Origin: Eledone cirrhosa
Taxonomy: Eukaryota
NCBI GenBank assembly: GCA_964016885.1
Contig: OZ024743.1
Coordinates: forward strand, 187,798,001-187,862,000
Length of the DNA stretch: 64,000 bases
Direction of reading: 5' to 3'
This document shows positions 3,001-60,520 of this stretch, piece by piece. Both the position numbers and the translations under genes were made by a program. The notes below the pieces were generated by a model, which ran no database searches, was not told the origin of the DNA, and saw nothing but the letters and a program-made list of their open reading frames with translations. Every line of letters begins with the position of its first letter. Within the stretch, counting starts at the first letter, position 1.

Positions 3001-3685
3001 ATTCATTCACATTCACAGTTGGCTAAATTACTCTAACACCAGTAGCAACAAAGAAGATATATTAATCATGACCATTATAAAGGAACAATTCATTCATGGT
3101 TCTGAAATCAAACAAAAATTGTTCATTGGATGCCTATGATATTCAATGACACTAAAACACATACCATCCACATTAATTCTTCATTACAGAAAATAGTTCC
3201 TTTTCTTCAACCCTTAAAATTTTCACCTCACTCCATTTTACTTAAAGAAATTAAATTCTGAAATCCATCTTTATTCATTGAAGTTTATTAACACATGTGC
3301 AAGACAAATAACTTTCAGTTAAAAGAAACAACAAACATTTCAGGTTAGGAAGAACTCCTACTTACACAACAGAGGGATTACAAATTTGAACTAACACTTT
3401 AAAAGCAGATAAACAAACTTTACTACTAATACTAACATTGTACTTATACAATAACCATTCATTCTAATATAAATAATTAACATATATATGCATTTCAGAA
3501 TGCTAGGAGCAAATGGAAATATATACCAATCAAATACATGTTTCCATGTGGTTGATTGGATGAAATATACATCTTCTGATGTGGGTTTAATTACATCCAA
3601 AGATCGATTAAACATATTTATCATTTAAAAAATTTTTCAATGAAAATCATATTTTCTGGCATGTTTACATACCTACATATTAGAT

Positions 3686-14262: not shown

Positions 14263-14650
14263 ATATATAGTAAAACCTACTCCAGCCAGTAGGCATCTCT
14301 AACAAATACACCCCGTCCCACCACCCCCACCCGATCCACACCACCCCGTTCTATGTAAAGTTATGTTGGTGCCGCGCCATCGAGGCCGAAACAAATGAGA
14401 TCGTGTAGGTGTCACGACAAAAAAACACACAGTCCACGCTGTAATGTGGCCGTGTAGGCAACACGGTAAAAACCTCCCAGACCCACACTGTAAATGTGGT
14501 TGGTGTTAGGAAGGGCATCCAACTGTAGAAAACCTGCCAGACAGTCCTATGCGAGCAAGACAATCACTCTTGCCTCAAGTGGGACTACCCCCGTCCAAAC
14601 CCATGCAAGCGTGGAACACGGACGTTAAACGCTGATGATGATGATGATGA
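12244..14650 (+). mobile_element. RTE family A, 5'-truncated, uninterrupted reading frame
   Basis: ORF to 14262 carries complete RT motifs and the PHD insert. About 370-bp 3' UTR and (GAT)n tail. Confidence 0.96.
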
Positions 14651-14994
14651 TTCACCAGCATTAAAGAAATTGTTGTGCCTCTGACACAGCTAAAGAATCC
14701 AGTAAATCCTTTATATATAACATATATATATTCCTACATGTACATATATTCTCTAGAATTATATAATACAATGACATGCATTGGATGGATGGGTATTGCC
14801 CAGCACAGCCTCCCATCCTTGCTATGAAGTTCTGCATTTTGAGATCCTCTCTCATTATTTCTGCCCAAATCTTGATTGATACTCTTTTACTGCAGCTTCT
14901 TTCTACTGGAAAATCCTGATACTTATCAAGCCATTCCTCATGCCCAACTTTTAAGCCTCTTCTAATCTATAGAACATAGGATATTGTCAACAAA

Positions 14995-29700: not shown

Positions 29701-31916
29701 AAACCGTGATATTGTCGGGGAGAAGTGTGTACTTAACGATGACGGCGTACTTGCCATCACCGACGCCGATAAGAAGGTAGCTTGGAAGTGTCACTATAAA
29801 AGGCTACTAAATGAGGAGAATAAATGGGAGAAAGACAGTCTCCCCCACATCGACCCAATAGAGGGACCAGCAGTGTTAGTCGAGGGTAGTATAATAAGTA
29901 AGGCAATCAAAGATATGAAGACAGGCAAGGCGGCTGGGCCTTCGGAAATAGTTGCCGAGATGCTGAAGGCATCTGGTACGGTGGGACACACCATGGTCAC
30001 CCGGATAGTCAACCAAGTCATACAGAATGGGGTTGTTCCGAAGGACTGGCGTAGCAGCATCATCGTTAACTGCTATAAGGGTAAAGGAGATGCCCTAGAT
30101 AGGAGTAACTATAGAGGCATTAAATTAATCGACCAGGTCCTGAAGGTCACGGAAAAAGTAATAGCGCAACTAATCAGAGAGCGAATTGATCTAGATGAAA
30201 TGCAGTTCGGGTTTGTGTCAGGAAAAAGTACCACAGACGCTCTTTTCATTGTACGACAACTACAGGAGAAGTACCTAGCTAAAAGTAAACCCCTATACTT
30301 AGCTTTCGTCGACTCGGAGAAGGCCTTCGACAGAGTCCCCCGTTCCATTATCTGGTGGGCTCTTAGAAAACTAGGTGTTGATGAATGGCTTGTGAGAGCT
30401 ATACAAGCCATGTATAAAGAAACAGTCAGCAAGGTTAGAATTAACAACGAATATAGTGAAGAGTTTAGTGTAAAAGTTGGTGTTCATCAGGGCTCTGTTC
30501 TTAGCCCCCTACTATTTATTATCGCCCTCCAGGCTATAACAGTGGAGTTCAAGACCGGCTGCCCATGGGAACTCCTATACGCAGATGATCTAACGCTCAT
30601 AGCTGAATCAATGGCCGAGCTAGAGAAGAAATTCCAAACATGGAAGCACGGCCTAGAATCAAAAGGCCTTAAAATTAACCTGGCTAAGACTAAAGTTCTA
30701 GTTTGTAAGAAAGAAAATAAGGCGGCGGTCCCCTCCGGGAAGTGGCCATGCTCAGAGTGTAGGAAAGGCGTAGGTAGAAATTCCATTTTGTGTCCCAAAT
30801 GCAAAGTTTGGGTGCATAAAAGATGTAGTGGGATCACAGGTAAACTAACTAAGAACATAGATTTTACATGTAGCCGGTGTTCTGGGGCAATAAGTAGCAG
30901 CAAGTGCCCACAAAATACTAGCTCTTTCAACTGCGCAGAGGGTTCTATAGAAATAGTGGACAGCTTCCGTTACCTGGGTGACAAAATCAGCAGTGGGGGA
31001 GGGTGCTCTGAAAGCACAGGAGCTAGAGTCAGAACTGGGTGGAAAAAGTTCAGAGAGCTTATACCATTATTAGCCGCTAAAGGCTTCTCCCTAAAAATGA
31101 AAGGCAGGTTGTACGATGCCTGCATACGAACAGCAATGTTGCATGGCAGTGAGACCTGGGCATTGTGTGCAGAGGATATATGCAGACTAGAGAGGAACGA
31201 AGCTTGCATGCTCCGCTGGATGTGTAATAGTAATATACGTGAACGACAAAGCATAAACGAACTAAGAAAAAAATTAGAAATAAGAGGGATCAGATGTTGT
31301 TTACTAGAGAGAAGGATACGTTGGTATGGTCACGTGATGCGCATGAAGGACGATAGCTGTATAACAAAGTGCAGGGCAATAAAGATAGACGGTAGCCACG
31401 GAATAGGCAGACCCAGAAAAACCTGGGACGACATGATAAACTACGACCTCACACACTTACACCTCACCAAGACAATGTCACTGGACCGAGACCTTTGGCG
31501 GTACTCAGTAATAGAGAAGACCCGCCTTACCTAAATACAAAGTAAAACCTACTACAGTCAGTAGGCATCTCTAACAAAATACACCCCCCCCCCCACCCCA
31601 TCCACACCGCCCCCTTCTATGTAAAGTTATGTTGGTGCCACACCATCCTGGCCGAAACAAATGAGATCGTGTAGGTGTCACGACAAAAAAACACACAATC
31701 CACGCTGTAATGTGGCCGTGTAGGCAACACGGTAAAAACCTCCCAGACCCACACTGTAAATGTGGTTGGTGTTAGGAAGGGCATTCAACTGTAGAAAACC
31801 TGCCAGACAGTCCTATGCGAGCAAGACAATCACTCTTGCCTCAAGTGGGAAAACCCCCGTCCAAACCCATGCAAGCGTGGAACACGGACGTTAAACGTTG
31901 ATGATGATGATGATGA
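29701..31916 (+). mobile_element. RTE family A, 5'-truncated
   Basis: ORF 29873-31534 (RT + PHD), 3' UTR and (GAT)n tail. Sits between (TA)n tracts. Confidence 0.96.
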
Positions 31917-31930
31917 TATATATATATATA

Positions 31931-33983
31931 TTAGGTTGTCTCACATGAAATGTCGTATTTTTAATAAGTTTCTTTATCAGCCATTTATAAGCTTGATTAT
32001 GTGTACGCTTGCGTTTAATCTTAACTATCTTTTATTCCAAACAATATTACCATTCAAAATCGCTACCCAGAATCCTATGACAATGTTGACAACTAAACAA
32101 TACTGAGTGGTTTTCTTGTACGAATATAAGCTGGATCCCTCGATCTCAAGCCCTACGAAACATTAAGCGAGCTTTTGGTAACGATTCTGTTGACACCAGA
32201 ACTGTCCAGAGATGGTTTCAAAGATTTCGTTCAGGAAATGAGAGCCTTAAAAATGAACCAAGAGGGAGACCCATATCAGTAATTCGACATGATGATTTGA
32301 ATGCTTTGGTTAAACAAAATCCGAGAACAACGGTTCGAAAAATCTCATCTGAGCTCCAGACATCTCTCTCAACTGTTTCTCGACACCTGAAGAAAATTGG
32401 AAAAGTCAAAAAGATGGACAGGTTTGTTCCACATCAACTTAATGAGATTCAAAGAAACAGGCGTCTTACAGTGTGTTGAATGTTGGTTTCTCGGCTCGAA
32501 AGCGATCCATTTTTGCATCGACTCATTACGTGTGATGAGAAATGGATAATCTTCGATAACAGCAGAAAGACTGGACAGGGGTTAGATGCAGAAGAGTCAC
32601 TGAAACACTACCCGAAACCACCATTGCACCCTAAGAAGTTGATGGTCACTGTATGGTAGTCTGCAAAGGGGATTATTCATTATTCATTTTTGCAACAAGG
32701 CAATACTGTAACAGCAACATCATATTGTCAGGAAATTGATCGTATGCATGAAAAATTGAAGAAGAAGCATCCCAGACTAGTGAATAGAGATGGCCCAATT
32801 TTGCTTCACGATAATACATGGCCTCACACCTCTCAAGCTATGGTCCACAAGTTGCAAAGTCTGAATTATGAAATTTTGCAACATCCTCTCTATTCTCCTG
32901 ATATCTCTCTTACTGATTATCACTTATTTAAGCATTTTGAGCTTTTTATACACAATAAAACATTCTTAAATAGAGAAGAGGTAATTGAAGCATTCGGACA
33001 ATTCATCAGTGCAAAAGATGATAAATTCTTTGAATCAGTAGAGGAGCTAGAGAATAAATTCTGGCTATGGAAACAGCAGTTGGAAGCAAGAGGACTGAGA
33101 GTGAATCTAGCTAAGACAAAAGTGTTGATGAGTAGAAAAGAGGACAAAACCCTGATTCCGTCAGGGAAATGGCCATGTTCGATATGCAGAAAAGGAACTG
33201 GCATAAAGTCTATAAAATGCAGACAATGCAGATCCTGGGTACACAAGAGATGTAGCGGGATAGCAGGCAAACTAACAGGTAGGGAGAAATATGTATGCAG
33301 TAGATGTACAGGGAAATTAGACAGTAGAAGTCGCATTGATAGACACATTTTTCAAATGCAGGAGGGCGCTATAGAAGTGGTGGATAGCTTCCGGTACCTA
33401 GGAGATCAGATTAGCATGGGAGGAGGGTGTTCCGAGGCCATAGTATCTAGAATAAGGATGGGTTGGAAGAAGTTTAGGGAGCTGCTTCCTCTGTTGACGA
33501 AGAAGGGTTTCTCCCTGCGTACGAAAGGCCGGTTGTATGATGCCTGTGTGAGGAGCGCGATGCTGCATGGTAGTGAGACATGGGCAGCAACTGCAGAGGA
33601 TATGCGACAGCTGGAGAGAAATGAGGCAAGCATGCTCCGTTGGATGTGCAGTGTAAATGTGCGTGAACGACCCAGCATAAATGTGTTGAGAGAGAAACTG
33701 TGTCTGAGAGGGATAGAATGTAGTGTACGGGAGAGGAGACTGAGGTGGTATGGACATGTGATGCGCATGGAGGATGACCGATGGGTGAAGAAGTGCCAGG
33801 AAATGCCAGTTGAAGGAAGACGTGGTAGAGGTAGACCATGAAAAACATGGTCGGAGGTGGTGAGAACAGACCTCAGATCATTGAAGCTCACGGTGGAGAT
33901 GACGAAGGACTGTGACGAGTGGAGAAATGCTGTGCTGAATAAGACCCATCCCACCCTTGCAAGCAGGGAAAAGTGGACGTAAA

Positions 33984-34964: not shown

Positions 34965-35130
34965 GTATTGTTGTTGTTGCTATTATCCTCCTCCTGATCA
35001 TCATCATCATCATTATTATTATTATTGATGTTCTTATTTTGTTGTTGTTGTTGTTCTTCTTCTTCTTCTTCTCCTCCTTCTTCTTCTTCATCTACTTCTT
35101 CTTCTTCTTCTTTTTCTTCTTCTTTTTCTT

Positions 35131-35169
<39 letters not shown>

Positions 35170-35170
35170 G
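34965..35170. repeat. Compound trinucleotide microsatellite (GTT/CAT/CTT/TTA)n
   Basis: Direct reading. Confidence 0.9.
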
Positions 35171-35171
35171 T

Positions 35172-35638
35172 TCTTTGAGTCTCAGTCATTGATGTTAGTT
35201 AACTGGAAAGTTTGTTGAAATGAATATCAAGCCACTACCTGCAGCCTCAGATATTCAGGACGTATCGGAGGGTTCTTGCTGTTCCCAGCAAGCATGCCTT
35301 TTGAAGCGTTCCAAAAAGCGTGAAGGGGCCAATTTTCTTTAACCATCCCTGGAAACTCCTTGAGATAGTCCCTAGTGCGCCTATGACAATCGAGACCACT
35401 TTGACTTCATGGCAGTTCCAAATCCTTTTTAACTCCCACTTTAAGTCCAGTTAATTTTCTCCCTCTCCTTCTCTTGCACTCTCGTGTCGAATGGGCAGGC
35501 CACATCCACAATCAGGCACGATCTTTTTCCAATGTCCAAAAAAACCACATCAGGTCTATTGTGTTCTAATTTCTTGTCCGTCTGTATCCTAAAATCCCAC
35601 AGCACCTTCACCTGATCGTTTTCTATCACCGCCTCTGG
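35172..35638 (-). mobile_element. R4/Dong-type RLE non-LTR retrotransposon 3' fragment (copy 1)
   Basis: KVLWDFRIQTDKKLEHNRPDVV...IVDVACP...EKI (PD-(D/E)xK restriction-like endonuclease) and QKACLLGTARTLR. Runs into (TAA)n; has a small frameshift. Confidence 0.88.
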
Positions 35639-38600
35639 AGGCAAAGGCCCAATCCGTAGTGACCCTAAGGAGCGAGGAAATGGTGTTGGTGCCCTCCTAC
35701 TGCGGGCAAAAAATTGTGAGGGTCAAACTGACCCCCCCCCCCCCCCGGGATGGCCCCCTCTTGGCTGGCCGCGTCTGTCCTCGTCGGGATCGAGGACAAA
35801 ACAACTGTACTGTAAGTACAGAAAAAATTAAGAGAAGATTGGGTCGGCACCTCCATTGAGATGTTAATCCAAACCAACCAGGAGTGCATCGAAGCTATCC
35901 CGGATGTGATAGACTTCGATAACGGCACTCAACTGCCCATAAGTGTTGAGGGCAAACGCCCGAAATGCTTTCGCTGTGGATCGAAGACTCACATCAGGGC
36001 CTTCTGCAACGAGAAGACCCTGAGAAAGGAGAAAACCCCCCTCCTTCCGAAACCGGCTCCACGGCTACCAGCAACAGGACAAGCGGCAACCAGGAACGAT
36101 AGGTCCGTGGCACCCATACCCACGCCACGGAAATCAAAAACAGCAGCAGCAGTGGAAGTATTAACAACAACAACAGCAATACCAAATGCAGCTGCAACAT
36201 AGACTCCAGTGCAAACATCACCAAAAACAAGTGAAAGAGTGGTACTGGTACCCCTCCCCGACCTCACAGAATCAGACATGGAGTGTGAGGTGGGAGAGGG
36301 ATGGCAAAAGGTCGTAAGAAGGCACAAACGCAGAAGCAGCGCATCGTCGCCTTTGAAAAGGGAGGAAAGAAATGAAAAAAGGGTAAAGGCTACTGCAAAG
36401 AGACTCACAGCAGCAACACCACCAACACCATCACCACCCACACTAGCACCACCATCACCACCGGCGACAACCACACCACCAACAACACCTTCAACACCAC
36501 CACCACAAGCACCAACATCGCAAACACAACAACAAAACACACACACCCAGCAACAACGACAAGAAAATAGCAGAACCACACCCCACCCCCAGAAAAACAA
36601 ATGCACGGCAATAAATACACACAACAAGAAACTAATGACTTACATAATTGAACACACAGACATTTCACAACACGACTACATAATACCAGCACCAATCAAA
36701 ACGCCAACTAACATAAGACTGCTAAAAATAGCACAGAAACAATACACAAACATTAAAACGAAATTCCCCAACGCAGTTGGTGATTTCAGAGACCTAGGAG
36801 GGACACTCAACCGAAGAGAATATTCGGATATACTCATAGAAGAGCCGACGACCATCCAAAGGGACGATTCAACGACCAGACGATCAAGTAAAAAGGGATG
36901 GAAAAACCATCCCTCCTCTACGAAAAGTAAGGTAAGTGGTCTTTCCCATCTTTTCCACTCTATTTTAAACATGACCTCACTCAGAATAGGCAGCATAAAT
37001 GCGCGTGGCTTGGGGTCGTCATGGAAGCAGGGTCACCTGCTCAACGACCTCAGGTCACTAAAGATAGATGTAGTGGCCATCAGCGAGACCAGAATCTCCG
37101 AAGCACGGGCCTTCGCACCGATCTTCGGCGGCTACGATGTGTACGCATCTCCCAGCCGTCCTGGATCGGGGGGAGGAGTTGCTGTGCTTTTTCGGAGAGG
37201 TTTGGATCTCGCCATACGGGGCATCTTCCTGGACCCAGAGGGTAAGTTGGTGGTGCTGGACGTGACCAGCGGAGACGGGCAAGCTTTCAGGCTAGTTGCC
37301 GTCTATGCCCCGACAGGAGCAGGGCGGCCTGATTTCTTCCGGCGTCTGGAGACCTTTCTTGGAACGTCCCGCTCTTTAGTATTAGTGGGCGACTGGAACG
37401 GGATCTTAGATGCACGCTGGGATTGTGTGGGATTAGCGGATAGGGGTGGAGGGTGCAAGAGCCTCACCAACCTGCTCAGGCGTTTTGATCTGTCTGACAG
37501 GTACCGATTGGATTTCCCGAATGTGCCAATGTGGACTTGGACAAATCGCATAGGGTCATCCAGATCATATCTAGATAGAGTATTTTGTAGGGAAATAGAT
37601 AGGTCTAGCATAGGCTGTCCACAATTCAAGATAGTCAGCTACACGGACCACAAATTCGTGATCTGTGTGCTTGACTTAGATAGGCTTCATAGACGAGGAC
37701 CCGGCTACTGGAAGCTAAACGCGTCCTTACCAGCGCGCAAAGCCTACAGAGACCGGATTAGCGAACTAGTTAAGCGGGTGTTGACGGGGGCCATCGTCAA
37801 CAACAAGTGGTGGTTTGCTCTGAAAAGAGCGATTAGAATAGAATCGATTAGGTTTAGTAAGGCTTTAGCAATAGAGAAAAATAGAGCAGAGGGAGAACTA
37901 GTTAGAAAATTAGACGAGGCACTTAGCAAAGGCATTGCGACCGACGTGCTTGCGGCGAAATTGGCCCTTGATCAATTCTTCAATGCAAAACACGAGGGCT
38001 GCGTTGTCAGAGCTAGGGTGCGTGCTCTCAGACACGAGGGGACGAAAGCCGTTCAATGGGCCCGAGTGGCGGAGGCGCGTCGTGGCAACAAAGCCACGAT
38101 CCGGTCTTTGGTGGACCACGACGGGCGCATGCTACTCGATCCCGGGAAAATGTGTGAAGCTTTTCAGCGACACTTCACTCAGCTGTTCGGGGGAAGCGGT
38201 GGGCCGGGTCGAGGGATAGACTTTAGTTTCTACCTCAACGGACTGCCGCGGCTCTCGACCACTGAGGCGGAGTGTTGCGAAAAGTCGATAACAGCCGCTG
38301 AAGTAAGGGAGGCAATGACTGGCTGCACAAGGGGTAAATCGCCTGGTTTGGATGGTCTGCCCTATGAACTTTACGTACAGATGCCAGACTTCTTCGGAGG
38401 CCTCTTGGCGGACGTCTACTGCAACTGGCAACAGAACGGGAGAATTTCCCAGTTCTGTGAGCCGAGGAGCGGTGGCACTGCTGAGAAAGGATCCGAACAA
38501 GGGGGATAACATAGATAATTTCAGGCCCATAACTCTGCTAAACACAGAGTTCAAGATTTTGGCCAAGGTGCTAGCAAAGAGGTTGGCGCTTGTCGTTGGT

Positions 38601-40321
38601 GGTCTGGTGGGAGAGGCGCAGACATGCGCTATTCCCGACAGATCCATCCACGACAACCTCCACCTCATGCGATACATCGTAGAGAGGGTAACTAGGGAAC
38701 CTGGCACGGGTGGATCCTTGATCAATTTAGATCAGTCGAAAGCTTTCGATAGGGTCGACCATCGTTACCTAGCGGCAGTCCTGAGGGCGGCTGGCTTTCG
38801 GCCCGTCTTCAGAGGCTGGATCGCTGCCATGCACAGCGACACCTGCTCTGTGGTGAGAGTGAACGGTCACCTTTCGGAACCGTTCAACATCATGCGCTCG
38901 GTCCGCCAAGGATGACCCTCTCGTCCCTCTTGTACGTATTGACTCCCGAGCTATTACTGCACAAACAGGAGACGTTGAGGGGCGTCCCGCGCGAACTAGG
39001 ATGCGGAAGATCCGTGTCAGCATATGCGGACGATGTCACCGTAGTGGTGTCGAACGCCAAACACATCGAGGCGATCGGCACCACACTAAGAGAATACGAA
39101 GCGGTGACAGGAGCAATGATCAACCAGGAAAAGTCAGTGGGCCTGCAGCTCGGCACCTGGAGATGCAGGTCCATGCCGTCCAACAGCGTCGTCGGACGCT
39201 GGACGGACGGACCGATTAAATTGCTAGGGGTCTGGTTCGGCTACGACATCTCCACCTCTTCCTCGACGGTGATCAGGTGTGGTCGCCGTTTGCTAGACAC
39301 GTATTTCCCCAGCTCGTTTCCTTTACAAAGCTGCAGTCCTGGGTCAAGCGAAGACCGAGAGGGAGCGCCTGGAGACTAGAATGTCTTCAGGCGCTCACAG
39401 CCCTCGAACAATCGGGCAATGTGATCGGTGGAAACTCCACCTCGGCGTTCTATAGAGGATTAGTGGAGGCGAAGAGCGACGACGTACATGGGGAAACTCT
39501 AGGCGTCGACGAAAATCAACTAGCCAATCTCTTCGGAAGAACTTTCGGGCCGGGGCCTATGGACAACTTCCAGAAATCTCTGGCCTGGCAGTGCTACCGA
39601 GGAGCCTTGCCAGTTCGGGATAAACTCTACAGGTATGGTAGTGCCGTCAGGCGGGCATGTCCGAGATGCGCGCAAGGCGACGAAACCGTCCTGTACGCAC
39701 TCGTCCAGTGTCCGAAAATTGCTGACTTGTGGGTTTATGTCGAACACCTGCTGTCGCGTTTAGGACGGATCCGGCTATCATCTGAGTCCATCGTGAGGAT
39801 TGCCCCGCCCTCCTCCTTTAGCCGGGAAGGGCAGGCAGTTTTTATCTGTCTGGTGGCCATGGCGAAAGAGATAGTATGGTGTACACGTTTGAAAGGGCTG
39901 AAGACGACCACTTACCTCTTCGGTGATGCTCTGAATGAGTTTTTCAAATTTCATTTGAAAAGGAAAATCAGAGTAGAGAGGGAAGTGCTCTCTTCCCAGC
40001 ATTTTGTTGAAAGATGGGTGAGAGAAGCAAGAATGGCCCAAGTGAATGGGCCTACTCTGAGTATATATCTGTAAATTAAAGGTGGAAAACTGGGAGAGGG
40101 CGCTTGCCTTGGTGGTCTGGGTCATTGTGGCCTTTTACTGGGCTTTCTCCACAAATGTCCCTCCGAAGTCTCCCCCCTATTGGGGAATTTTTCATTGTTA
40201 TTTTTTGTTACATCCTCTGTTTTTGTTTTTTACACGCAGAAATGCCCATTTGTACCGTCCTGTATTGTCCTGCACTGTCCTAATGTCTACTTTATGTAAA
40301 CCCTTGTGGTTAATAAAGAAA
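35639..40321 (+). mobile_element. Tx1/L1-clade LINE copy A (5'-truncated in ORF1, internal deletion in ORF2)
   Basis: ORF1 relic with CCHC knuckle CFRCGSKTHIRAFC. ORF2 from ATG 36971 has APE (SINARGL, ISETR, VYAP, GDWN, YLDR, TDH), RT (KSPGLDG, DQSKAFDRV, AYADD) and C-terminal CPRC...C. AATAAA then (TTA)n. Confidence 0.95.
36971..40074 (+). pseudogene. Tx1 ORF2 (APE-RT-zinc finger), frameshifted
   Basis: ORFs 36209-38509, 38352-38915, 38912-39379 and 39277-40074 are successive pieces. Confidence 0.9.
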
Positions 40322-40379
<58 letters not shown>

Positions 40380-40886
40380 TCTTTGAGTCTCAGTCATTGA
40401 TGTTAGTTAACTGGAAAGTTTGTTGAAATGAATATCAAGCCACTATCTGCAGCCTCAGATATTCAGGACGTATCGGAGGGTTCTTGCTGTTCCCAGCAAG
40501 CATGCCTTTTGAAGCGTTCCCAAAAGCGTGAAGGGGCCAATTTTCTTTAACCATACCTGGAAACTTTTTGAGATTGTCCCTAGTGCGCCTATGACAATCG
40601 GGACCACTTTGACTTCATGGCAGTTCCAAATCCTTTTTACCTCCCACTTTAAGTCCTGGTATCGGTTAATTTTCTCCCTCTCCTTCTCTTGCACTCTCGT
40701 GTCGAATGGGCAGGCCACATCCACAATCAGGCACGATCTTTTTTCTTTGTCCAAAACCACCAGGTCAGGTCTATTGTGTTCCAGTTTCTTGTCCGTCTGT
40801 ATCCTAAAATCCCACAGCACCTTCACCTGATCGTTTTCTATCACCGCCTCTGGCTTATGCTCATACCACTTCTCAGAATGTGGTAA
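40380..40886 (-). mobile_element. R4/Dong-type RLE retrotransposon 3' fragment (copy 2), open RLE frame
   Basis: Open frame 40455-40886 reads PHSEKWYEHKPEAVIENDQVKVLWDF...RPDLVV...DVACP...EKINRYQDL...PIVIGALG. Flanked by (TTA)n on both sides. Confidence 0.92.
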
Positions 40887-40895
40887 ATTGTTTAC

Positions 40896-40929
<34 letters not shown>

Positions 40930-41438
40930 GGCGACCTACGTAGTAAATCGTATCATCGTGAGCTCCGCAAAGGTGTGTTATTTCCGTTTGTTAAAAATTG
41001 TCATTTATGGAAAATTTTATTGTTAACTGTTTATAAGCGCACATACATTGTTTTCTGAAAAGGACACCCAAAAATATTGGGGCCTTGTGCCCAAAATTTA
41101 AACTTTTATTATTATCAAAAAAATTTCTTTGAAAAAAATGGCTAATTCACCTCTGCACGAAGCAGCTGAAAGCCTTCCTCACAAATTAACACCTCACACC
41201 GATACCACCATTGTAAATGTTACTACGTTTGCCAACACAAAAAAAAAATATAAGCACTAGCAATATTTTAAATTTGTCTCAGGCAGACATTCATTTCCCG
41301 CCATTACCAATGACTGCAGGTGTTAAAGCCTCCACCACCACCACCACCGCGACAACCACCACCACCACCACCGCGACAACAGAAACAAAAGAAGAAAAAA
41401 ATAAATTAACTCGTGATGTCGAAATGTAATCAAGCAAA

Positions 41439-43127
41439 ATGGACTCTTCCCCACCAAAGACGGCCGACGTCACCACCACCACAACTGAAACTAAAATTAA
41501 TATTAACGATAGCAACAACAACAACAATGACATTATAACCCCCCCCCCCCCCCCCCCCTTCAGTTTCGCCAGAGTAGCAAAACAGTTCGAAGCATTTACG
41601 GTAACTCAGGAGGATTTAGAAAACGCCAAACAACAAATGTTAAAGAAAAATGGGTACAGGGTCAGCCTCACCCCCTCACCTAATAAAATGGAGCATTGGC
41701 GCCTATGCACCGTGTCGTATAGAACAATAAATGTAAAATCGCGCCGAGTGGAACGGGCATCCGGGTCCCAAATCCAAAAAGCTTTGGGACATGTGTGGGC
41801 AAGAAAAACCCACATCAGACGTGGGCAAAAATATGGAACCGTGCACGTGTTCTTTGAAACACCAGAGGAGGCTAGAGAACACTCCATGGCCCCATTAAGA
41901 AGTGACGACTTCACACTCGTCCCAAGCTATTGTGGCCAGAGACTCGTAAAGATCAGGGTGACCCACGTTCCACCGGCCATCGAAAGTCCCTGGCTAATAG
42001 CGGCTGTCCTCGCCGGCATCGAAGCCAACACGAAAATAATAGCAATAGCAAAAGAAAAGCAGGAGAACTGGTCTGGTTCTGGGATGGACCTCCTGATCCA
42101 AGCGGACCAAAAAAGCATTGAGGAGATCCCAGAGGTAATAGACCTCACTGACGGCAGCCACCTCACGGTAATTGTCGAGGGCAGAAGACCTAGGTGTGTC
42201 GTTTGTGGTGAAGGAACCCACCTAAGGGCTTTCTATCCTCAGGCTAAAAGGTTGAGGCCACCTCTCCTACTCACCCCAGTGACACAACCACCAACACCAC
42301 CAGTAGCAGAGATGGCAGCAACAACTGTAGCAGCAACAACTGTAGCAGCAACAACAGAAGCAACTATAACAGCAACAACCCCAGCAACAGTAGCAAAACC
42401 AACACCACCACCACCCAACGCTTCAGAACTAGCACCAGCGCCTACACCATCCACCACGCCACAACCAAAACTAACGGCTGTGGAGGATTTTCCACTCCCC
42501 GGCCTATCACAACTGGAGACAGATTGTGACGACGAGGAGTGGGAAACGATATCCGGAAAAAAAAAAAAAGAAACCAAAAAAGAAAAAAATTCTCTTCCTT
42601 CCCCCTCCAAAAACAAAATACAGAGGGAAACAAATAAATTAAGAAACAAAAAAGTTAGGACAGATATGCCACCATCCACACCAGCATCACCAACCCCATC
42701 AACCCAAACACCAACACCATCACCATCATTAACCCCAACACCACCATCACCTACACCACAAAAGTCACCAAAATGCGAAACAGAAACAAACCCACAACAA
42801 ACGCAAACAAAACAAAACAACCAAAACGATACACACTGCACAGCATTAAATTTGAACAACAAGCAATTATTACACTACATCCAACACAACACCAGCATCA
42901 CAGAAAAAGACTACACAACAACCCCAAAATTCACACCACCTCCACACATACAAATCACTCGCATCACACAGAAAACGTACATGACACTAAGACAAAAATT
43001 CCCCAAAGACATCGGAGACTTCCGACAAGCACTCTCCAGGAGGATTTATAAGGACAACCTTCCTGAGGAGGCCACAAGCAGTGAAAAGGATGGAAAAACC
43101 ATCCTTCCCCTACGAGAAGTAAGGTAA
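41439..43127 (+). CDS. Tx1 ORF1 (gag-like; RRM-like region, degenerate CCHC knuckle, Pro/Thr-rich linker)
   Basis: 562-aa open frame directly upstream of ORF2. SFARVA motif and CVVCGEGTHLRAFY knuckle (last Cys lost). Confidence 0.82.
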   Translation: MDSSPPKTADVTTTTTETKININDSNNNNNDIITPPPPPPFSFARVAKQFEAFTVTQEDLENAKQQMLKKNGYRVSLTPSPNKMEHWRLCTVSYRTINVKSRRVERASGSQIQKALGHVWARKTHIRRGQKYGTVHVFFETPEEAREHSMAPLRSDDFTLVPSYCGQRLVKIRVTHVPPAIESPWLIAAVLAGIEANTKIIAIAKEKQENWSGSGMDLLIQADQKSIEEIPEVIDLTDGSHLTVIVEGRRPRCVVCGEGTHLRAFYPQAKRLRPPLLLTPVTQPPTPPVAEMAATTVAATTVAATTEATITATTPATVAKPTPPPPNASELAPAPTPSTTPQPKLTAVEDFPLPGLSQLETDCDDEEWETISGKKKKETKKEKNSLPSPSKNKIQRETNKLRNKKVRTDMPPSTPASPTPSTQTPTPSPSLTPTPPSPTPQKSPKCETETNPQQTQTKQNNQNDTHCTALNLNNKQLLHYIQHNTSITEKDYTTTPKFTPPPHIQITRITQKTYMTLRQKFPKDIGDFRQALSRRIYKDNLPEEATSSEKDGKTILPLREVR

Positions 43128-43161
43128 GTGGTCTTTCCCATCTTTTCCACTCCTTTTCAAC

Positions 43162-46100
43162 ATGACCTCACTCAGAATAGGCAGCATAAATGCGCGTGGC
43201 TTGGGGTCGTCATGGAAGCAGGGCCACCTGCTAAACGACCTCAGGTCACTAAACATAGATGTAGTGGCCATCAGCAAGACCAGAATCTCCGAAGCACAGG
43301 CTTTCGCACCGATCTTCGGCGGCTACGATGTGTACGCATCTCCCAGCCGTCCAGGATCGGGGGAGGAGTTGCTGTGCTTTTTCGGAGAGGTTTGGATCTT
43401 GCCATACGGGCCATCTTCCTGGACCCAGAAGGTAAGTTGGTGGTGCTGGACGTAACCAGCGGAGACGGCCAAGCTTTCAGGTTAGTGGCCGTCTATGCCC
43501 CGACAGGAGCAGGGCGGCCTGATTTCTTCCGGCGTCTGGAGACCTTTCTTGGAACGTCCCGCTCTTTAGTGTTAGTGGGCGACTGGAACGGGATCTTAGA
43601 TGCACGCTGGGATTGTGTGGGATTAGTGGATAGGGAAGGAGGGTGCAAGAGTCTCACCAACCTGCTCAGACGTTTTGAACTGTCTGACAGGTACCGAATG
43701 GATTTCCCGAATGTACCAATGTGGACTTGACCAAATCGCATAGGGTCATCCAGATCATATCTAGATAGAGTATTTTGTAGGGAAATAGATAGGTCTAGCA
43801 TAGGCTGTCCACAATTCAAGATAGTCAGCTACACGGACCACAAATTCGTGATCTGTGTGCTTGACTTAGATAGGCTTCATAGACGAGGACCCGGCTACTG
43901 GAAGCTAAAACGCGTCCCTACCAGCGCGCAAGGCCTACAGAGACCGGATTAGCGAACTAGTTAAGCGGGCGTTGACGGGGGCCATCGTCAACAACAAGTG
44001 GTGGTTTGCTCTGAAAAGAGCAATTAGAATAGAGTCCATTAGGTTTAGTAAGACTTTAGCAATAGAGAAAAATAGAGCAGAGGGAGAATTAGTTAGAAAA
44101 TTAGACGAGGCGCTTAGCAAAGGCATCGCGACCGACGTACTTGCGGCGAAATTGGCCCTTGACCAATTCTTCAATACAAAGCAAGAAGACTGCGCTGTCA
44201 GAGCTAGGGTGCGTGCTGTCAGACACGAGGGACGAAAGCCGTTCAATGGGCCGAGTGGCGGAGGCGCGTCGTGGCAACAAAGCCACGATCCGGTCTTTGG
44301 TGGACCACGACGGATGCATGCCACTCGATCCCAGGAAAATGTGTGAAGCTTTTCAGCGACACTTCGCTCAAATGTTCGGGGGCAGCGGCGGGCCGAATCG
44401 AGGGATGGACTTTAGTCTCTACCTCGACGGATTGCCGCGGCTCTCGGCCACTGAGGCAGAGTGTTGCGAAAAGCCGATAACAGCCGCTGTAGTATGGGAG
44501 GCAATGACTGGCTGCACATGGGGTAAATCACCTGGTTTGGATGGTCTGCCCTATGAACTTTACGTACAGATGCCAGACTTCTTCGGAGGCCTCTTGGCGG
44601 ACGTCTACTTCAACTGGCAACAGAACAGGAGAATTCCCAGCTCTGTGAGCCGAGGAGCGGTGGCACTGCTGAGAAAGGATCCGAACAAGGGGGATAACAT
44701 AGATAATTTGAGGCCCATAACTCTGCTAAACACAGAGTTCAAGATTTTGGCCGAGGTGCTAGCAAAGAGCTTGGCGCTTGTCGTTGGTGGTCTGGTGGGA
44801 GAGGCGCAGACATGCGCCATTCACGACAGATCCATCCACGACAACCTCCACCTCATGCGATACATCGTAGAGAGTGTAGCTAGGGAGCCTGGCACGGGTG
44901 GGTTCTTGATCAATTTAGATCAGTCGAAAGCTTTCGATAGGGTCGACCATCGTTACCTAGCGGCAGTCCTGAGGGCGGCTGGCTTTCGGCCCGTCTTCAG
45001 AGGCTGGATCGCTGCCATGCACAGCGACACCTGCTCTGTGGTGAGAGTGAACGGTCACCTTTCGGAACCGTTCAACATCATGCGCTGCGTCCGCCAAAGA
45101 TGTCCCCTCTCATCCCTCTTGTACGTATTGACTCTCGAGCCATTACTGCACAAACTGGAGACGTTGAGGGGCGTCCCGCGCGAACTAGGATGCGGAAGAT
45201 CCGTGTCAGCATATGCGGACGATGTCACCGTAGTGGTGTCGAACGCCAAACACATCGAGGCGATCGGCACTGCACTAAGAGAATACGAAGCGGTGACAGG
45301 AGCAATGATCAACCAGGAAAAGTCAGTGGGCCTGCGGATCGGCACCTGGAGAGGCAGGTCCATGCCGTCCAACAGCGTCGTCGGACGCTGGACGGATGGA
45401 CCGGTTAAATTGCCAGAGGTCTGGTTCGGTCCGCCCTCCAGACAGACAAAAACTGGGACGAGGTGACGAGCAGGGTGGCTTCTCTCACCCAAAAATGGGC
45501 GGAGAGGAAGCTATCCCTGAAAGGTCGAGCGGAGGTTTCTAACGCGTACATCGCGTCTGTCATCTGGTACCGCCTGACCGTCGTACCTTGTCCTAATTGC
45601 CGCCTGACTGCGCTGGAGCGTTTGCTCTTTCGCTTTTTGTGGAAGGGACGCGCTCCGATGATCAGGCGGTCCATCTGTTGTCAACACCCGCTACGTTGAG
45701 GGCTGGGCATGTCCTGGTTGATGATGCGCAGACACGCGCTCAGGCTACGACATCTCCCCCTCTCCCTCGACGGTGATCAGGTGTGGTCGCCGTTTGCTAG
45801 ACACGTCTTTCCCCAGCTCGTTTCCTTAACGGAGCTGCAGTCCTGGGTCAAGCGAAGACCGAGAGGGAGCGCTTGGAGACTGGAATGTCTTCAGGTGCTC
45901 ACAGCCCTCGACCAATCGGGCAATGGGATCGGTGGAAACTGCACCTCGGCGTTCTATAGAGGATTAGTGGAGGGGAAGAGCGACGACGTACTTGGGGAAA
46001 CTCTAGGCGTCGACGAAAATCAACTAGCCAATCTCTTCGGAAGAACTTGCGGGCCGGGGCCTATGGACAACTTCCAGAAATCTCTGGCCTGGCAGTGCTA

Positions 46101-46578
46101 CCGAGGAGCCTTGCCAGTTCGGGATAAACTCTACATGCATGGAGGTGCCGTCAGGCGGGCATGTCCGAGATGCGCGCAAGGCGACGAAACCGTCCTGCAC
46201 GCACTCGTTCAGTGTCCGAGAATTGCTGACTTGTGGGTTTATATCGAACCCCTGCTGTCGCATTTAGGGTGGATCCGGCTATCAGCTGAGTCCATCGTGA
46301 GGATTTCCCCGCCCTCTACCTTTAGCCGGGAAGGGCAGGCAGTTTTTATCTGTTTGGTGGCCATGGTGAAAGAGATAGTATGGTGGATACGTTTGAAAGG
46401 GCTGACGACGAGCACTTACCTCTTCGGTGATGCCCTGATTGACTTTTTCAAATTTCATTTGAAAAGGAAGATCAGGGTAGAGAGGGAAAGGCTCTCTTAC
46501 CAGCATTTTGTTGAAAGATGGGTGAGAGAAGCAAGTATGGCCCGAGTGAATGGGCCTACTCTGAGTATGTGTCTGTAA
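43162..46578 (+). pseudogene. Tx1 ORF2 (APE-RT-CCHC), frameshifted
   Basis: Pieces 43162-43455, 43128-43730, 43972-44346, 44141-45466, 45463-45699 and 45709-46578. CPRCAQGDETVLHALVQC. Confidence 0.9.
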
Positions 46579-47579
46579 ATTAAAGGTGGAAAACTGGGAG
46601 AGGGCACTTGCCCTGGTGGTCAGGGTCACTGTGGCCTTTTAATGGGCTTTCTCCACAAATGTCCCTCCGAAGTCTCCCCCCTATTGGGGAATTTTTCATT
46701 GTTATTTTTTGTTACATCCTCTGTTTTTGTTTTTTACACGCAGAAATGCCCATTTGTACCGTCCTGTATTGTCCTGTACTGTCCTTAATGTCTACTTTAT
46801 GTAAACCCTTGCGGTTAATAAAGAAAGCATTATTATTATTATTGATGTTCTTATTTTTGTTTTTGTCATCATCATCATAATCCATAATAATAATAATAGT
46901 AATATGGTGGAGTATTTTTTCTTCTTCATTTCAAGTAATTAACAATTTTCTAACAATTTATAGCATTTACTGAGGAATAATCAATTTGATATGGTAATCG
47001 TATACACCAACAGCTATGAGTGCCATTTTCCCTCTAATTGTTGTTAAAGGTCAAAACTATCTGCTTATATATTTCCTTTTGTTTTCACTTTTGAAATGTG
47101 ACAACCATTAAGAAAGAATACCTAGCAATTAAACAGTATCATGCCTATATTAAATGTAAACCATCATTCATAATTTCAATCATCATCAGCACGATCAGCA
47201 TTGTATAAAGCGATCCTCTTCAAAATCACTCTACCTGCTAGAAATAGAAGCCAAATTGCCCTCAAATCTCATCTTACCTTCTTATAAAAGAAAGGACACA
47301 TTGGATAAAGCCGATAAAAAATATCAGGGTAACAATTAGGACATTCAAATTCAAATGCATACAACATATATACCCATTCAACAATATACACAGAAGGATA
47401 TGTTGCTTTTATTAAAGCACAATTGGAATTTAAGAGAAAAAAATATAGATATAAATAGAAATTGGGATATGATAGACAGTGCCACAATTTATATATACAC
47501 AAATATGTTCCCTGCACTTCTCAGAAATGTACAGTGTAATTATACAGCAAATATACTTACTAATTAAAATGAATGTGGT

Positions 47580-48226: not shown

Positions 48227-51200
48227 CTGTGGTTAGCTGAAAAGTTCGTAGGCTGACTATGAAGTAGTGATGCTAGTGTTGTGAAATCTTGCATGCATTA
48301 ATTCCAACTCTTTTTATTAATAATGGTGTTGTTTTCACCCAGGTAAACTAACATCTGACTGTTCAAAGAAGACTTCAAATGTAACTGGTAGCAACTTCTC
48401 TTGAAAATTAACTATATTTGGCATTGTGGTGTTATCAAGTACCTGCAGAAAAAGGATGTAACTTCCAAGTATATTCATGTTGACATGTTTGCTACATTAA
48501 GGGATGCCACTCCAGCTTTACAGTGCAAAAGTGGGCAGCTGAATTTAATGGGGGAAGGGAGAGTCTTGAAGATGATCCAAAGTCTGGACGTCCTGCAACT
48601 GCCACCACTGGGGAAAACATTGATTGTGCTCACCACATGGTGATGGATAACCGACTTGCCATCACCGACGCTGATAAGAAGGTAGCTTGGAAGTGTCACT
48701 ACGAAAGGCTTCTAAATGAGGAGAACAAATGGGAGAAAGACAGTCTCCCCCACATCGACCCAATAGAGGGACCAGCAGTGTTAGTCCAGGGTAGTACAAT
48801 AAGCAAGGCAATCAAAGATATGAAGATGGGTAAGGCGGCTGGTCCTTCGGAAATAGTTGCTGAGATGCTGAAGGCATCTGGTTCGGTGGGACACACCATG
48901 GTCACCCGGATAGTTAACCAAGTCGTACAGAATGGGGTTGTTCCGAAGGACTGGCGTAGCAGCATCATCGTTAACTGCTATAAGGGAAAAGGAGATGCCC
49001 TAGATAGGAGTAACTATAGAGGCATTAAATTAATCGACCAGGTCATGAAGGTCACGGAAAAAGTAATAGCGCAACTAATCAGAGAGAGAATTGATCTAGA
49101 TGAAATGCAGTTCGGGTTTGTGTCAGGAAAAAGTACCACAGACGCTCTTTTCATTGTACGACAACTACAGGAGAAGTACCTAGCTAAAAGTAAACCCCTA
49201 TACTTAGCTTTCGTCGACTTGGAGAAAGCCTTCGACAGAGTCCCCCGTTCCATTATCTGGTGGTCTCTTAGAAAACTAGGTGTTGACGAATGGCTTGTGA
49301 GAGCTATACAAGCCATGTATAAAGAAACAGTCAGTAAGGTTAGAATTAACAACGAATATAGTGAAGAGTTTAGCGTAAAAGTTGGTGTCCATCAAGGCTC
49401 TATTCTTAGCCCCCTACTATTTATTATTGCCCTTCAGGCTATAACAGAGGAGTTCAAGACCGGCTGCCCATGGGAACTCCTATACGCAGATGATCTAACG
49501 CTCATAGCTGAATCAATGACCGAACTAGAGAAGAAATTCCAAACATGGAAGCACGGCCTAGAATCAAAGGCCTTAAAATTAACCTGGCTAAGACTAAAGT
49601 TCTAGTTTGTAGGAAAGAAAATAAGGCGGCGGTCCCATCTGGGAAATGGCCATGCTCAGTGTGTAGGAAAGGCGTAGGCAGAAACTCCATTTTATGTCCC
49701 AAATGCAAAGTATGGGTGCATAAAAGATGTAGTGGGATCACAGGTAAGCTAACTAAGAACATAGATTTTACATGTGGCCGGTGCTCTGGTGCAATAAGTA
49801 GCAGCAAGTGCCCACAAAATACTAGCTCCTTCAACTGCGCAGAGGGTTCTATAGAAATAGTGGACAGCTTCCGTTACCTGGGTGACAAAATCAGCAGTGG
49901 GGGGGGGGGGGGGGGGTGCTCTGAAAGTACAGTAGCTAGAGTCAGAACTGGATGGAAAAAGTTCAGAGAGCTTATACCACTATTAGCCGCTAGAGGGTTC
50001 TCCCTAAAAATGAAAGGCAGGTTATACGATGCCTGCATACGAACAGCAATGCTGCATGTCAGTGAGACCTGGGCATTGTGTGCAGAGGATATACGCAGAC
50101 TAGAGAGGAACGAAGCTTGCATGCTCCGCTGGATGTGCAATAGTAATATACGTGAACGGCAAAGCATAAACGAACTAAGGAAAAAATTAGAAATAAGAGG
50201 GATCAGATGTTGTTTACTCGAGAGAAGGCTACGTTGGTATGGTCACGTGATGCGCATGAAAGACGACAGCTGTATAACAAAGTGCAGGGCAATAAAGATA
50301 GACGGTAGCCACGGAGTAGGCAGACCCAGAAAAACATGGGACGAGCTGATAAATTCCGACCTCACACGCTTACACCTCTCCAAGACAATGTCACTGGACC
50401 GAGACCTTTGGCGGTACTCAGTAATAGAGAAGACCCGCCTTACCTAAATACAAAGTAAAAACCTACTACAGTCAGTAGGCATCTCTATCAAAACACACCC
50501 CCGTCCCACCACCTCCACCCCATCCACACTGCCCCTTTCAATGTAAAGTTATGTTGGTCCCACAACATCCAGGCCGAAACAAATGTGATCGTGTAGGTGT
50601 CACGACAAAAAAAAACACACAACCACGCTGTAAATGTGGCCGTGTAGGCAACACGGTAAAAACCTCCCAGCCCCACACTGTAAATGTGGTTGGTGTTAGG
50701 AAGGGCATCCAACTGTAGAAAACCCGCCAGACAGTCCTATGCGAGCAAGACAACCACTCTTGCCTCAAGTGGGCAAACCCCCGTCCAAACCCATGCAAGC
50801 GTGGAACACGGACGCTAAACCTGATGATGACTATAAATCAAATAGCCAAGGATATTAGCAAATCCCCTGAGAGAGTTGAGAATATTCGGCACAATAAAGT
50901 TGGCAGGACTAAGGTTTCTGTGTGGCGGATGTCATGTCTTCTCGTACCTGATGAAAAGTGCACCAGGCTGATCACAGGAAAATCTGACATTGTTTGATGG
51001 AGATCCAGCTGGTTTCTTTGAACGTTTCCTAACCCAACTTGAGTGTTGTGTTCATAATCTGAGCCAGAGACAAAGAGACAATCCATGCAATGGAAATACC
51101 ACTCTTCACCTGCTCCAAAGAAGGCCAATTTCGTTTCATCTGCAGGGAAGGGTGATGGCCTTGTGTTTATCTTCATAAAGGCCACATTATCAATGGAGAG

Positions 51201-58928: not shown

Positions 58929-60520
58929 GGTGGGCTCTTAGAAAACTAGGCGTTGACGAATGGCTTGTGAGAGCTATACAAGCCATGTATAAAGAAACAG
59001 TCAGCAAAGTTAGAATTAACAACGAATATAGTGAAGAGTTTAGCGTAAAAGTTGGCGTCCATCAGGGCTCTGTTCTCAGCCCCCTACTATTTATTATTGC
59101 CCTTCAGGCTATAACAGAGGAGTTCAAGACCGGCTGCCCATGGGAACTCCTATACGCAGACGACCTGACACTCATAGCTGAATCAATGGCCGAGCTAGAG
59201 AAGAAATTCCAAACATAGAAGCACGGCCTAGAATCAAAAGGACTTAAAATTAACCTGGCTAAGACTAAAGTTCTAGTTTGTAGGAAAGAAAATAAGGCGG
59301 CGGTCCCTTCTGGGAAATGGTCATGCTCAGTGTGTAGGAAAGGCGTAGGTAGAAACTCCATTTTATGTCCCAAATGCAAAGTATGGGTGCATAAAAGATG
59401 TAGTGGGATCACAGGTAAGCTAACTAAGAACATAGATTTTACATGTGGCCGGTGCTCTGGTGCAATAAGTAGCAGCAAGTGCCCACAAAATACTAGCTCT
59501 TTCAATTGCGCAGAGGGTTCTATAGAAATAGTGGACAGCTTCCGTTACATGGGCGATAAAATCAGCAGTGGGGGGGAGGGGGGGTTTGTGTGCTCTGAAA
59601 GTACAGTAGCTAGAGTCAGAACTGGTTGGAAAAAGTTCAGAGAGCTTATACCACTATTAGCTGCTAAAGGGTTCTCCCTAAAAATGAAAGGCAGGTTGTA
59701 CGATGCCTGCATACAAACAGCAATGTTGCATGGCAGTGAGACCTGAGCATTGTGTGCAGAGGATATACGCAGACTAGAGAGGAACGAAGCTTGCATGCTC
59801 CGCTGGATGTGTAACAGTAATATACGTGAACGGCAAAGCATAAACGAACTAAGGAAAAAATTAGAAATAAGAGGGATCAGATGTTGTTTACTCGAGAGAA
59901 GGCTACGTTGGTATGGACACGTGATGCGCATGAAAGTCGATAGCTGTATAACAAAGTGCAGGGCAATAAAGATAGACGGTAGCCACGGAATAGGTAGACC
60001 TAGAAAGACCTGGGACGAGCTGATAAACTCTGACCTCACACACTTACACCTCTCCAAGACAATGTCACTGGACCGAGACCTTTGGCGGTACTCAGTAACA
60101 GAGAAGACCCGCCTTACCTAAATACATAGTAAAACCTACTACAGCCAGTAGGCATCTCTAACAAAATACACCCCCCACCCCCCACACCCCCACCCCATCC
60201 ACACCACCCCGTTCTATGTAAAGTTATGTTGGTGCCACGCCATCCAGGCCGAAACAAATGAGATCGTGTAGGTGTCACGACAAAAAAACACACAGTCCAC
60301 GCTGTAATGTGGCCGTGTAGGCAACACGGTAAAAACCTCCCAGACCCACACTGTAAATGTGGTTGGTGTTAGGAAGGGCATCCAACTGTAGAAAACCTGC
60401 CAGACAGTCCTATGCGAGCAAGACAATCACTCTTGCCTCAAGTGGGACTACCCCCGTCCAAACCCATGCAAGCGTGGAACACGGACGTTAAACGTTGATG
60501 ATGATGATGATGATGATGAT
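58929..60520 (+). mobile_element. RTE family A, 5'-truncated, two premature stops
   Basis: ORFs 58886-59218, 59330-59746 and 59750-60121 in one frame, then 3' UTR and (GAT)n tail. Confidence 0.95.

What the first reader, a model, noticed from the sequence alone, without database searches (positions are those of the whole stretch)
35011..46857. Repeated head-to-head pairing of an R4/Dong RLE 3' end with a Tx1 LINE: possible composite or co-targeting retroelement system at (TTA)n
Seen in sequence: the block reads (TTA)n - RLE fragment (-) - Tx1 A (+) - (TTA)n - RLE fragment (-) - (TTA)n - Tx1 B (+) - (TTA)n. Both RLE fragments are about 470-510 bp, cover just the restriction-like endonuclease domain plus 3' UTR, and are truncated within about 35 bp of each other. 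Copy 1 is fused directly to mid-ORF1 of Tx1 A at 35638, as if by deletion from a pre-existing RLE+Tx1 unit. Established: Dong/R4 elements target (TAA)n and some Tx1 families are microsatellite-specific. Inference: either two unrelated LINE clades pile into the same microsatellite in opposite orientations, or an APE-type LINE is amplifying with an antisense RLE cassette as one unit, which would be unusual.
Basis: partly seen in the sequence, partly recalled or inferred. Interest (0 to 1): 0.72.

Follow-up and report, generated by a model that had tools for sequence, protein, structure and literature searches.

The report
Stacked LINE nest, not a composite
Four broken jumping-gene copies of two unrelated kinds sit end to end in a short ATT repeat, facing opposite ways, but genome-wide counts show they do not travel as one unit; they likely landed one at a time because both kinds insert into the same repeat, as at over a thousand other places in this genome.

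Summary
The block is as described: (ATT)n - RLE(-) - Tx1-like A(+) - (ATT)n - RLE(-) - (ATT)n - Tx1-like B(+) - (ATT)n. The co-targeting reading holds; the composite reading fails.

The genome has 8,145 Tx and 7,544 RLE 3' ends by exact pattern, and 1,317 tail-to-tail pairs (about 16%). RLE breaks in 37 head-to-head contacts run from 134 to 3,676 nt, all different. The RLE1|TxA junction and TxA's internal deletion each occur once. In 37 pairs the two parts show no shared phylogeny (Mantel r -0.06; controls 0.74 and 0.90). Three paralogous locus pairs show an RLE-type element present in one copy and absent in the other.

RLE2 is an ordinary 5' truncation; RLE1 ends 45 nt earlier at a one-off 2-nt microhomology deletion. 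Such direct fusions are common (10 of 31 unanchored contacts), each with its own breakpoints. TxA and TxB share ORF2 but carry different 5'UTR/ORF1 modules.

The scan has already reported this two-polarity nest on other DNA of this genome (8 notes). Precedents: Dong in TAA, Kibi/Koshi, TRAS/SART.

The parts
35011..35048 (+). Left copy of a 39-nt direct repeat, (ATT)5 plus unique sequence; likely target-site duplication of the founding insertion
   Evidence: 95% to 46828-46866; only clean case among 73 closed nests
35049..35169 (.). (GTT)n(CTT)n(ATT)12 compound microsatellite; (TAA)n tail side of RLE1
35170..35638 (-). RLE1: last ~470 nt of a 4.9-kb Dong/R4-like element (RLE domain end plus 3'UTR), with a 7-nt deletion
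   Evidence: best relative 95.4%; full-length ORF 1141 aa in L101
35637..35638 (.). 2-nt microhomology (GG) at the RLE1|TxA fusion; single-copy junction
35637..40323 (+). TxA: Tx1-like LINE, ORF1 type A, lacking ~1.0 kb of its 5' end; ORF2 from 36971 broken by frameshifts, a stop and a ~314-nt deletion near 39240
40324..40379 (.). (ATT)18 shared by the TxA 3' end and the RLE2 3' end (tail-to-tail contact)
   Evidence: 1,317 such contacts genome-wide
40380..40898 (-). RLE2: 519-nt 5'-truncated Dong/R4-like copy, the youngest-looking part
   Evidence: 98.9% to copies elsewhere
40899..40929 (.). T run plus (TTA)8 spacer at the head-to-head contact
40930..46828 (+). TxB: full-length 5.9-kb Tx1-like LINE, ORF1 type B (41430-43127), ORF2 APE-RT-zf broken by frameshifts and 2 stops
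46828..46866 (+). Right copy of the 39-nt direct repeat, beginning with the (ATT)5 that follows TxB

Best explanation
The block is a nest of four dead or truncated LINE copies of two unrelated classes, set in opposite orientation in (ATT)n, that likely inserted one after another and do not move as a unit. Shown: both families sit in (ATT)n/(TAA)n with fixed, opposite polarity; breakpoints and neighbours vary freely; single insertions occur at paralogous empty sites. Inferred: the APE enzyme of the Tx1-like family primes on the TAA strand and the RLE enzyme on the TTA strand, and each insertion leaves repeat on both sides, which is the next landing site. Inferred order from nearest-relative identity: RLE1 (95.4%), TxB (96.5%), TxA (97.8%), RLE2 (98.9%). 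The RLE1|TxA fusion is a one-off deletion with 2-nt microhomology, made either when TxA's 5' end was joined or later. The near match of the two RLE ends is likely coincidence.
For: Counts: 8,145 Tx 3' ends, 7,544 RLE 3' ends, 1,317 tail-to-tail pairs. Polarity: 63 of 65 Tx-RLE pairs within 15 kb share the (TTA) polarity. (ATT)n precedes 30 of 30 TxB and 20 of 20 TxA 5' ends. RLE lengths in 59 tail-to-tail pairs: 36 closed, 168-3,071 nt, all different; 23 ran past the fetched stretch. 37 head-to-head breaks, 134-3,676 nt, all different. Mantel r -0.06, p 0.69 on 37 of the 59 pairs; nearest-neighbour overlap 11 against 9.2 expected; half-versus-half controls r 0.74 and 0.90. Five identical RLE copies sit beside Tx copies that differ from one another. 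Tx reaches its 5' end in 36 of 59 paired and 24 of 38 unpaired copies. Filled/empty paralogs L234/L300, L235/L232, L233/L299. Both TxA junctions single-copy with 1 mismatch allowed. Other neighbours are as common: of 40 sampled Tx ends without a pattern-detected RLE, 14 Tx, 6 second RLE family, 3 SINE, 3 RLE, 14 other.
Against: RLE beside Tx is somewhat enriched over generic arrays: 16-17% against about 10%, and 5 of 14 against 8 of 86 in a small list (p 0.017). Among copies picked for closeness to the window's elements, 7 of 7 TxB had one RLE 3' variant and 5 of 6 TxA the other; in 90 position-ordered junctions with readable variants (88 tabulated) the link was weak (p 0.10). One 39-nt repeat flanks the whole block, as a single insertion would give. 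Direct fusions (10 of 31) exceed the ~2% internal-deletion background. Strand of cutting was not tested. The age ranks are biased by which copies seeded the searches.
Confidence: 0.9

Rival explanations
1. A Tx1-like LINE amplifies with an antisense RLE 3' cassette of fixed length as one composite element.
For: Two RLE pieces of similar length in one block; one is fused directly to TxA. 53 distinct loci in the first 100 of 109 rows have an RLE cut at about 516-530 followed by TTA.
Against: Those 53 are 0.7% of 7,544 RLE ends, and of 13 inspected only 1 was followed by a TxB 5' end. Junctions are single-copy. No co-phylogeny. Breaks scattered.
Confidence: 0.02
2. The whole 11.8-kb block arrived in one event, as a read-through transcript of a nest elsewhere, primed at TxB's 3' end and flanked by the 39-nt duplication.
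For: The 39-nt repeat brackets all four parts and starts exactly at TxB's 3' end.
Against: No source copy: both TxA junctions occur once and the RLE2 end with its T run once among the 100 listed rows. A founding insertion followed by nesting inside its duplication gives the same picture.
Confidence: 0.04
3. Direct RLE|Tx fusions such as 35638 arise when the two enzymes prime on opposite strands of one (ATT)n at the same time and the two truncated cDNAs are joined (twin priming in trans).
For: 10 of 31 unanchored head-to-head contacts lack (ATT)n (one doubtful), against 2 of 15 tail-to-tail and ~2% background deletion; 0-6 nt microhomology or 1-5 nt insertions.
Against: Fused partners differ by 1-4.5 points in nearest-relative identity, RLE younger in 6 of 10 and Tx in 4 of 10. 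RLE ends also fuse directly to SINEs and to the second RLE family. 10 of 31 against 2 of 15 is a small sample.
Confidence: 0.04

Closest known systems
Dong (R4 clade; B. mori Dong, DongAg, DongBg; Dong-R4 of octopus)
   Same: TAA microsatellite target (PMC3812793, passages). Single ORF with RT, CCHC and C-terminal PD..D-x-K domain, nearest solved relatives R2 proteins. Dong-R4 is listed as recently active in Octopus vulgaris, 5 families and 1,129 insertions (PMC13282606, passages).
   Different: Here it shares the target with an APE-type family on the other strand. Clade placement by RT tree was not tested.
Microsatellite-specific Tx1 elements Kibi (TC)n, Koshi (TTC)n, crocodilian Tx1 (TTCC)n/(TTTC)n
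   Same: Two-ORF APE-RT element with microsatellite specificity (PMC4494074 passages; PMC3812793 passages). L1-Tx1 is listed as recently active in O. vulgaris.
   Different: Target is (ATT)n, not among the targets named in those passages. Tx1 membership rests on architecture and an L1-like endonuclease; no named Tx1 came up.
TRAS and SART in Bombyx telomeric repeats
   Same: Two LINE families insert into one tandem repeat in opposite orientation and build arrays (PMC10088271, passages).
   Different: Both are R1-clade elements at telomeres; here an APE and an RLE class share interstitial microsatellites at thousands of sites.
L1 5'UTR replacement in mammals
   Same: Related ORF2 carried by unlike 5' modules (PMC5381506, passages).
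   Different: Here the switch includes all of ORF1 (52% aa over a 225-aa core) and both types are abundant and full length at once.
Composite retroelements and transductions (SVA, L1 3' transduction; recalled, not from a call beyond a listing)
   Same: A LINE carrying foreign sequence was the proposed reading.
   Different: These have repeated fixed junctions and co-inherited parts; neither is found here.

Membership tests
Composite Tx1+RLE element | Same junction in many copies | tested here: not met
   RLE1|TxA: 1 match genome-wide with 1 mismatch allowed; only self spans it
Composite Tx1+RLE element | Fixed RLE truncation point | tested here: not met
   37 different breaks 134-3,676; 36 different closed lengths
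Composite Tx1+RLE element | Congruent phylogenies of the two parts | tested here: not met
   Mantel r -0.06, p 0.69, 37 pairs; controls 0.74 and 0.90
Composite Tx1+RLE element | One target-site duplication around the unit | tested here: inconclusive
   39-nt repeat flanks all four parts; also expected from nesting inside a founder's duplication
Composite Tx1+RLE element | RNA spanning the junction | not testable with these tools
   no RNA run was listed
R4/Dong | Single ORF with RT, CCHC and C-terminal restriction-like endonuclease, no APE | tested here: met
   1141-aa ORF in L101; RVT_1 and weak zf-RVT, no APE hit; R2 match in RT and C-terminal stretch
R4/Dong | Insertion in (TAA)n | tested here: met
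   3' ends in (TAA)n; 81 of 121 right-hand ends followed by the repeat, the misses including reference artefacts
R4/Dong | RT tree placement in R4 rather than HERO, NeSL or R2 | not tested
   no named references; Atlas gave only generic RT clusters
Tx1 | Two ORFs; ORF2 = APE, RT, C-terminal zinc-binding | tested here: met
Tx1 | L1-group endonuclease | tested here: met
   best solved matches are L1 endonuclease and its chimeras, E 4e-6 to 2e-4, weak
Tx1 | Target preference | tested here: met
   (ATT)n before 30 of 30 and 20 of 20 5' ends
Tx1 | RT tree placement with named Tx1 elements | tested here: inconclusive
   65 homologs, one named (a Ciona pol-like protein), none named Tx1; no tree built

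The most novel reading that the evidence does not exclude
The frequent direct RLE|Tx1 head-to-head fusions, of which 35638 is one, are made at integration by two unrelated retrotransposon enzymes nicking opposite strands of the same (ATT)n and joining their cDNAs, a cross-class twin priming that could create new chimeric elements.
Probability: 0.05. Interest if true: 0.75.

Novelty: new variant of a known kind. Interest (0 to 1): 0.27.

Why it matters
As a composite element it does not exist, so the headline claim falls. What remains is a genome-wide case of an APE-type and an RLE-type LINE sharing one microsatellite with opposite polarity, with an (ATT)n target not named for Tx1 in the passages read. 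It offers thousands of natural replicates for how two nuclease classes choose strand and site, and for how 5' junctions are repaired. The two ORF1 modules on one ORF2 allow a test of what ORF1 and the 5'UTR contribute. The scan has already described the nest elsewhere in this genome; this locus adds the negative test of co-mobilisation, the filled/empty pairs and the fusion junctions.

Tried and rejected
Local tandem duplication: rejected, since RLE2 is 98.9% like distant copies but 94% like RLE1, and TxA and TxB have unlike ORF1s. RLE read-through carrying a full-length antisense Tx: rejected, since the full-length share is the same with and without RLE (36 of 59, 24 of 38) and there is no co-phylogeny. 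A truncation hot spot at 516-530: about 0.05% of RLE ends per base, roughly twice a uniform rate, with mixed neighbours. Telling who made the 39-nt repeat: unresolved, 1 clean case in 73 nests. Empty allele in public runs: 3 holders from one sample, no RNA holder listed; laid reads were swamped by family copies and cut at the repeats, so uninformative. No random-region background was obtained; the array total (~73,000) is extrapolated from one phase (44,308) with a phase share taken from nest-biased stretches. Atlas and homolog searches gave no clade names. One search's junction tally undercounted through a faulty de-duplication and was redone. Paper search 'octopus, retrotransposon, nested insertions, TAA' gave 0 papers; searches listed no paper whose title or abstract start describes such a pairing; subscription papers, including Kojima and Fujiwara 2004, and Repbase were not searched. 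No supplements were read; those of PMC13282606 could hold these families.
Full report
Setting. The window lies at G000:C4:187798001-187862000 in a 3.0-Gb animal genome. Its repeats resemble those reported for octopus; that is my inference, not a tool result.

Anatomy. Reading and self-alignment give: a 39-nt repeat (35011-35048), a (GTT)(CTT)(ATT) tract, RLE1 (-, 35170-35638), TxA (+, 35637-40323), (ATT)18, RLE2 (-, 40380-40898), a T run and (TTA)8, TxB (+, 40930-46828), and the second copy of the repeat (46828-46866, 95%). RLE1 and RLE2 are 94% alike; RLE2 runs 45 nt beyond RLE1's end. The parent RLE family is about 4.9 kb with an 1141-aa RT-CCHC-RLE ORF closest to solved R2 proteins. The Tx elements have APE, RT and zf-RVT domains; both ORF2s are broken. 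TxA and TxB are 93-98% alike from about 43124 onward but 49-63% before it, and their ORF1s are 52% alike over a 225-aa core. Both types are common as full-length copies.

How common the pairing is. Exact patterns count 8,145 Tx 3' ends, 7,544 RLE 3' ends and 1,317 tail-to-tail contacts across (ATT)n, about 16-17% of each; the patterns differ in strictness, so the ratio is approximate. Of the first 100 Tx ends on C1, 21 have such an RLE. Of 40 sampled from the other 79, the next element is Tx in 14, a second RLE family in 6, a SINE in 3, RLE in 3 and something else in 14. About 9 of 40 full-length Tx copies have an RLE directly upstream. Polarity is nearly fixed: 63 of 65 Tx-RLE, 36 of 40 Tx-Tx and 34 of 35 RLE-RLE pairs within 15 kb share it. 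Against an estimated 73,000 (ATT)6+ arrays, RLE ends would occupy about 10%, so the pairing is about 1.6-fold enriched; a small direct list gave 5 of 14 against 8 of 86. I read this as general nest clustering, because Tx-Tx contacts are as frequent.

Is it a unit? No. The RLE1|TxA junction and TxA's deletion junction each match once in the genome with one mismatch allowed. RLE lengths in 59 tail-to-tail pairs (60 fetched, L243 dropped because its Tx end was not matched) were all different where closed (36; 168-3,071 nt), with 23 running past the stretch. Breaks in 37 head-to-head contacts were all different; 5 fell in 430-560. RLE copies cut at about 516-530 are 53 distinct loci in the 100 listed of 109 rows; of 13 inspected, 1 was followed by a TxB 5' end. 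In the 37 pairs long enough to align, Tx and RLE distances were uncorrelated (r -0.06, p 0.69) while halves of one element gave 0.74 and 0.90. Tx reached its own 5' end in 36 of 59 paired and 24 of 38 unpaired copies (element calls entered by hand). Three paralogous or uncollapsed-haplotype pairs show single events: L234 has a 2.6-kb RLE where L300 has bare (ATT)n; L235 has an extra 0.9-kb RLE against L232; L233 and L299 have different RLE families after the same Tx.

Results against this reading. Among copies chosen for closeness to the window's elements, 7 of 7 TxB had one RLE 3' variant and 5 of 6 TxA the other. In the position-ordered list all combinations occur and the link is weak (88 of 100 rows tabulated, 10 unreadable and 2 rare variants dropped; p 0.10); waves of joint activity would explain it. 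The 39-nt repeat brackets the whole block, which a single insertion would also give, but no source copy exists; it was the only clean case in 73 nests, probably visible because the original (ATT)5 was short.

The fusion at 35638. It has 2 nt of microhomology and removes about 1.0 kb of TxA. Ten of 31 unanchored head-to-head contacts lack (ATT)n (one doubtful), against 2 of 15 tail-to-tail and a ~2% chance from internal deletions (27 deletions in 89 full copies). In 10 fusions including the window's, overlaps are 0-6 nt or 1-5 nt are inserted, and either partner can look younger (6 RLE, 4 Tx). That fits deletion during 5' joining of the later element, or fragility of the repeat; R2 5' junctions with microhomology and upstream deletions are described in PMC2718515 (passages). 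I could not separate these two.

Mechanism. Shown: shared target, opposite polarity, independent single insertions. Inferred: each enzyme primes on a different strand and each insertion leaves repeat on both sides. Inferred and tentative: order RLE1, TxB, TxA, RLE2 from nearest-relative identity 95.4, 96.5, 97.8, 98.9%, biased by the seeds of my searches.

Comparison. Dong targets TAA, Kibi TC and Koshi TTC (PMC3812793 and PMC4494074, passages). TRAS and SART enter telomeric repeats in opposite orientation (PMC10088271, passages). Dong-R4 and L1-Tx1 are known and recently active in octopus (PMC13282606 and PMC8967140, passages). RLE, Tx1 and R1 groups hold most target-specific families (PMC4640811, passages). 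5'UTR replacement is known for L1 (PMC5381506, passages). I found no paper on this pairing, within an open-access library. Eight earlier notes of this scan describe the same nests on other DNA of this genome; none lay near this locus and none held all the fusion or ORF1-swap words.

Verdict. Observation confirmed, composite reading not supported, co-targeting supported. New variant of a known kind, interest 0.27.

Noticed in passing
window 35637-36890 and 40930-43120; L141-L160, L121-L140: Two abundant full-length subfamilies share ORF2 and 3'UTR (93-98%) but have unlike 5'UTR and ORF1 (52% aa in the core); at least two further 5' types occur (L047, L108). Suggests repeated 5'-module swaps at the ORF1/ORF2 boundary.
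   Followed up: partly
L136, L231, L243, L254, L262, L268, L310, L318: Direct RLE|Tx head-to-head fusions without (ATT)n, each with its own breakpoints and 0-6 nt microhomology; RLE|SINE fusions also occur (L102, L229).
   Followed up: partly
L241:690-4340 (-); L040:1747-3226: A second RLE family with RT, CCHC and PD..D-x-K motifs shares the (TAA)n target and the antisense polarity.
   Followed up: partly
L232/L235, L233/L299, L234/L300 (G000:C1 34.5-35.9 Mb): A 96-98% duplicated segment about 1.2 Mb apart gives filled and empty insertion sites; may be a segmental duplication or uncollapsed haplotypes.
   Followed up: partly
L143:8031-8280 (oriented), L072, L076, L086, L089: A ~200-nt SINE-like element ending in (ATT)n lies in the same nests with Tx polarity, and also inside Tx copies (L227).
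   Followed up: no
L267: RLE copies with internal inversions and duplications (twin-priming-like) beside a short Tx end.
   Followed up: no
window 4013-6076, 12244-14651, 29701-31920, 48484-50834, 58929-60520: Several 91-98% alike RT-encoding LINE copies (RTE-like, from recall) ending in (ATG)n/(CAT)n repeats, in both orientations; one abuts a mariner-like transposase remnant at 32660-33000.
   Followed up: no
L020, L022, L028, L037, L039; window 35049-35133: (AAG)n and (AAC)n expansions grow inside the (TAA)n spacers next to element ends.
   Followed up: no
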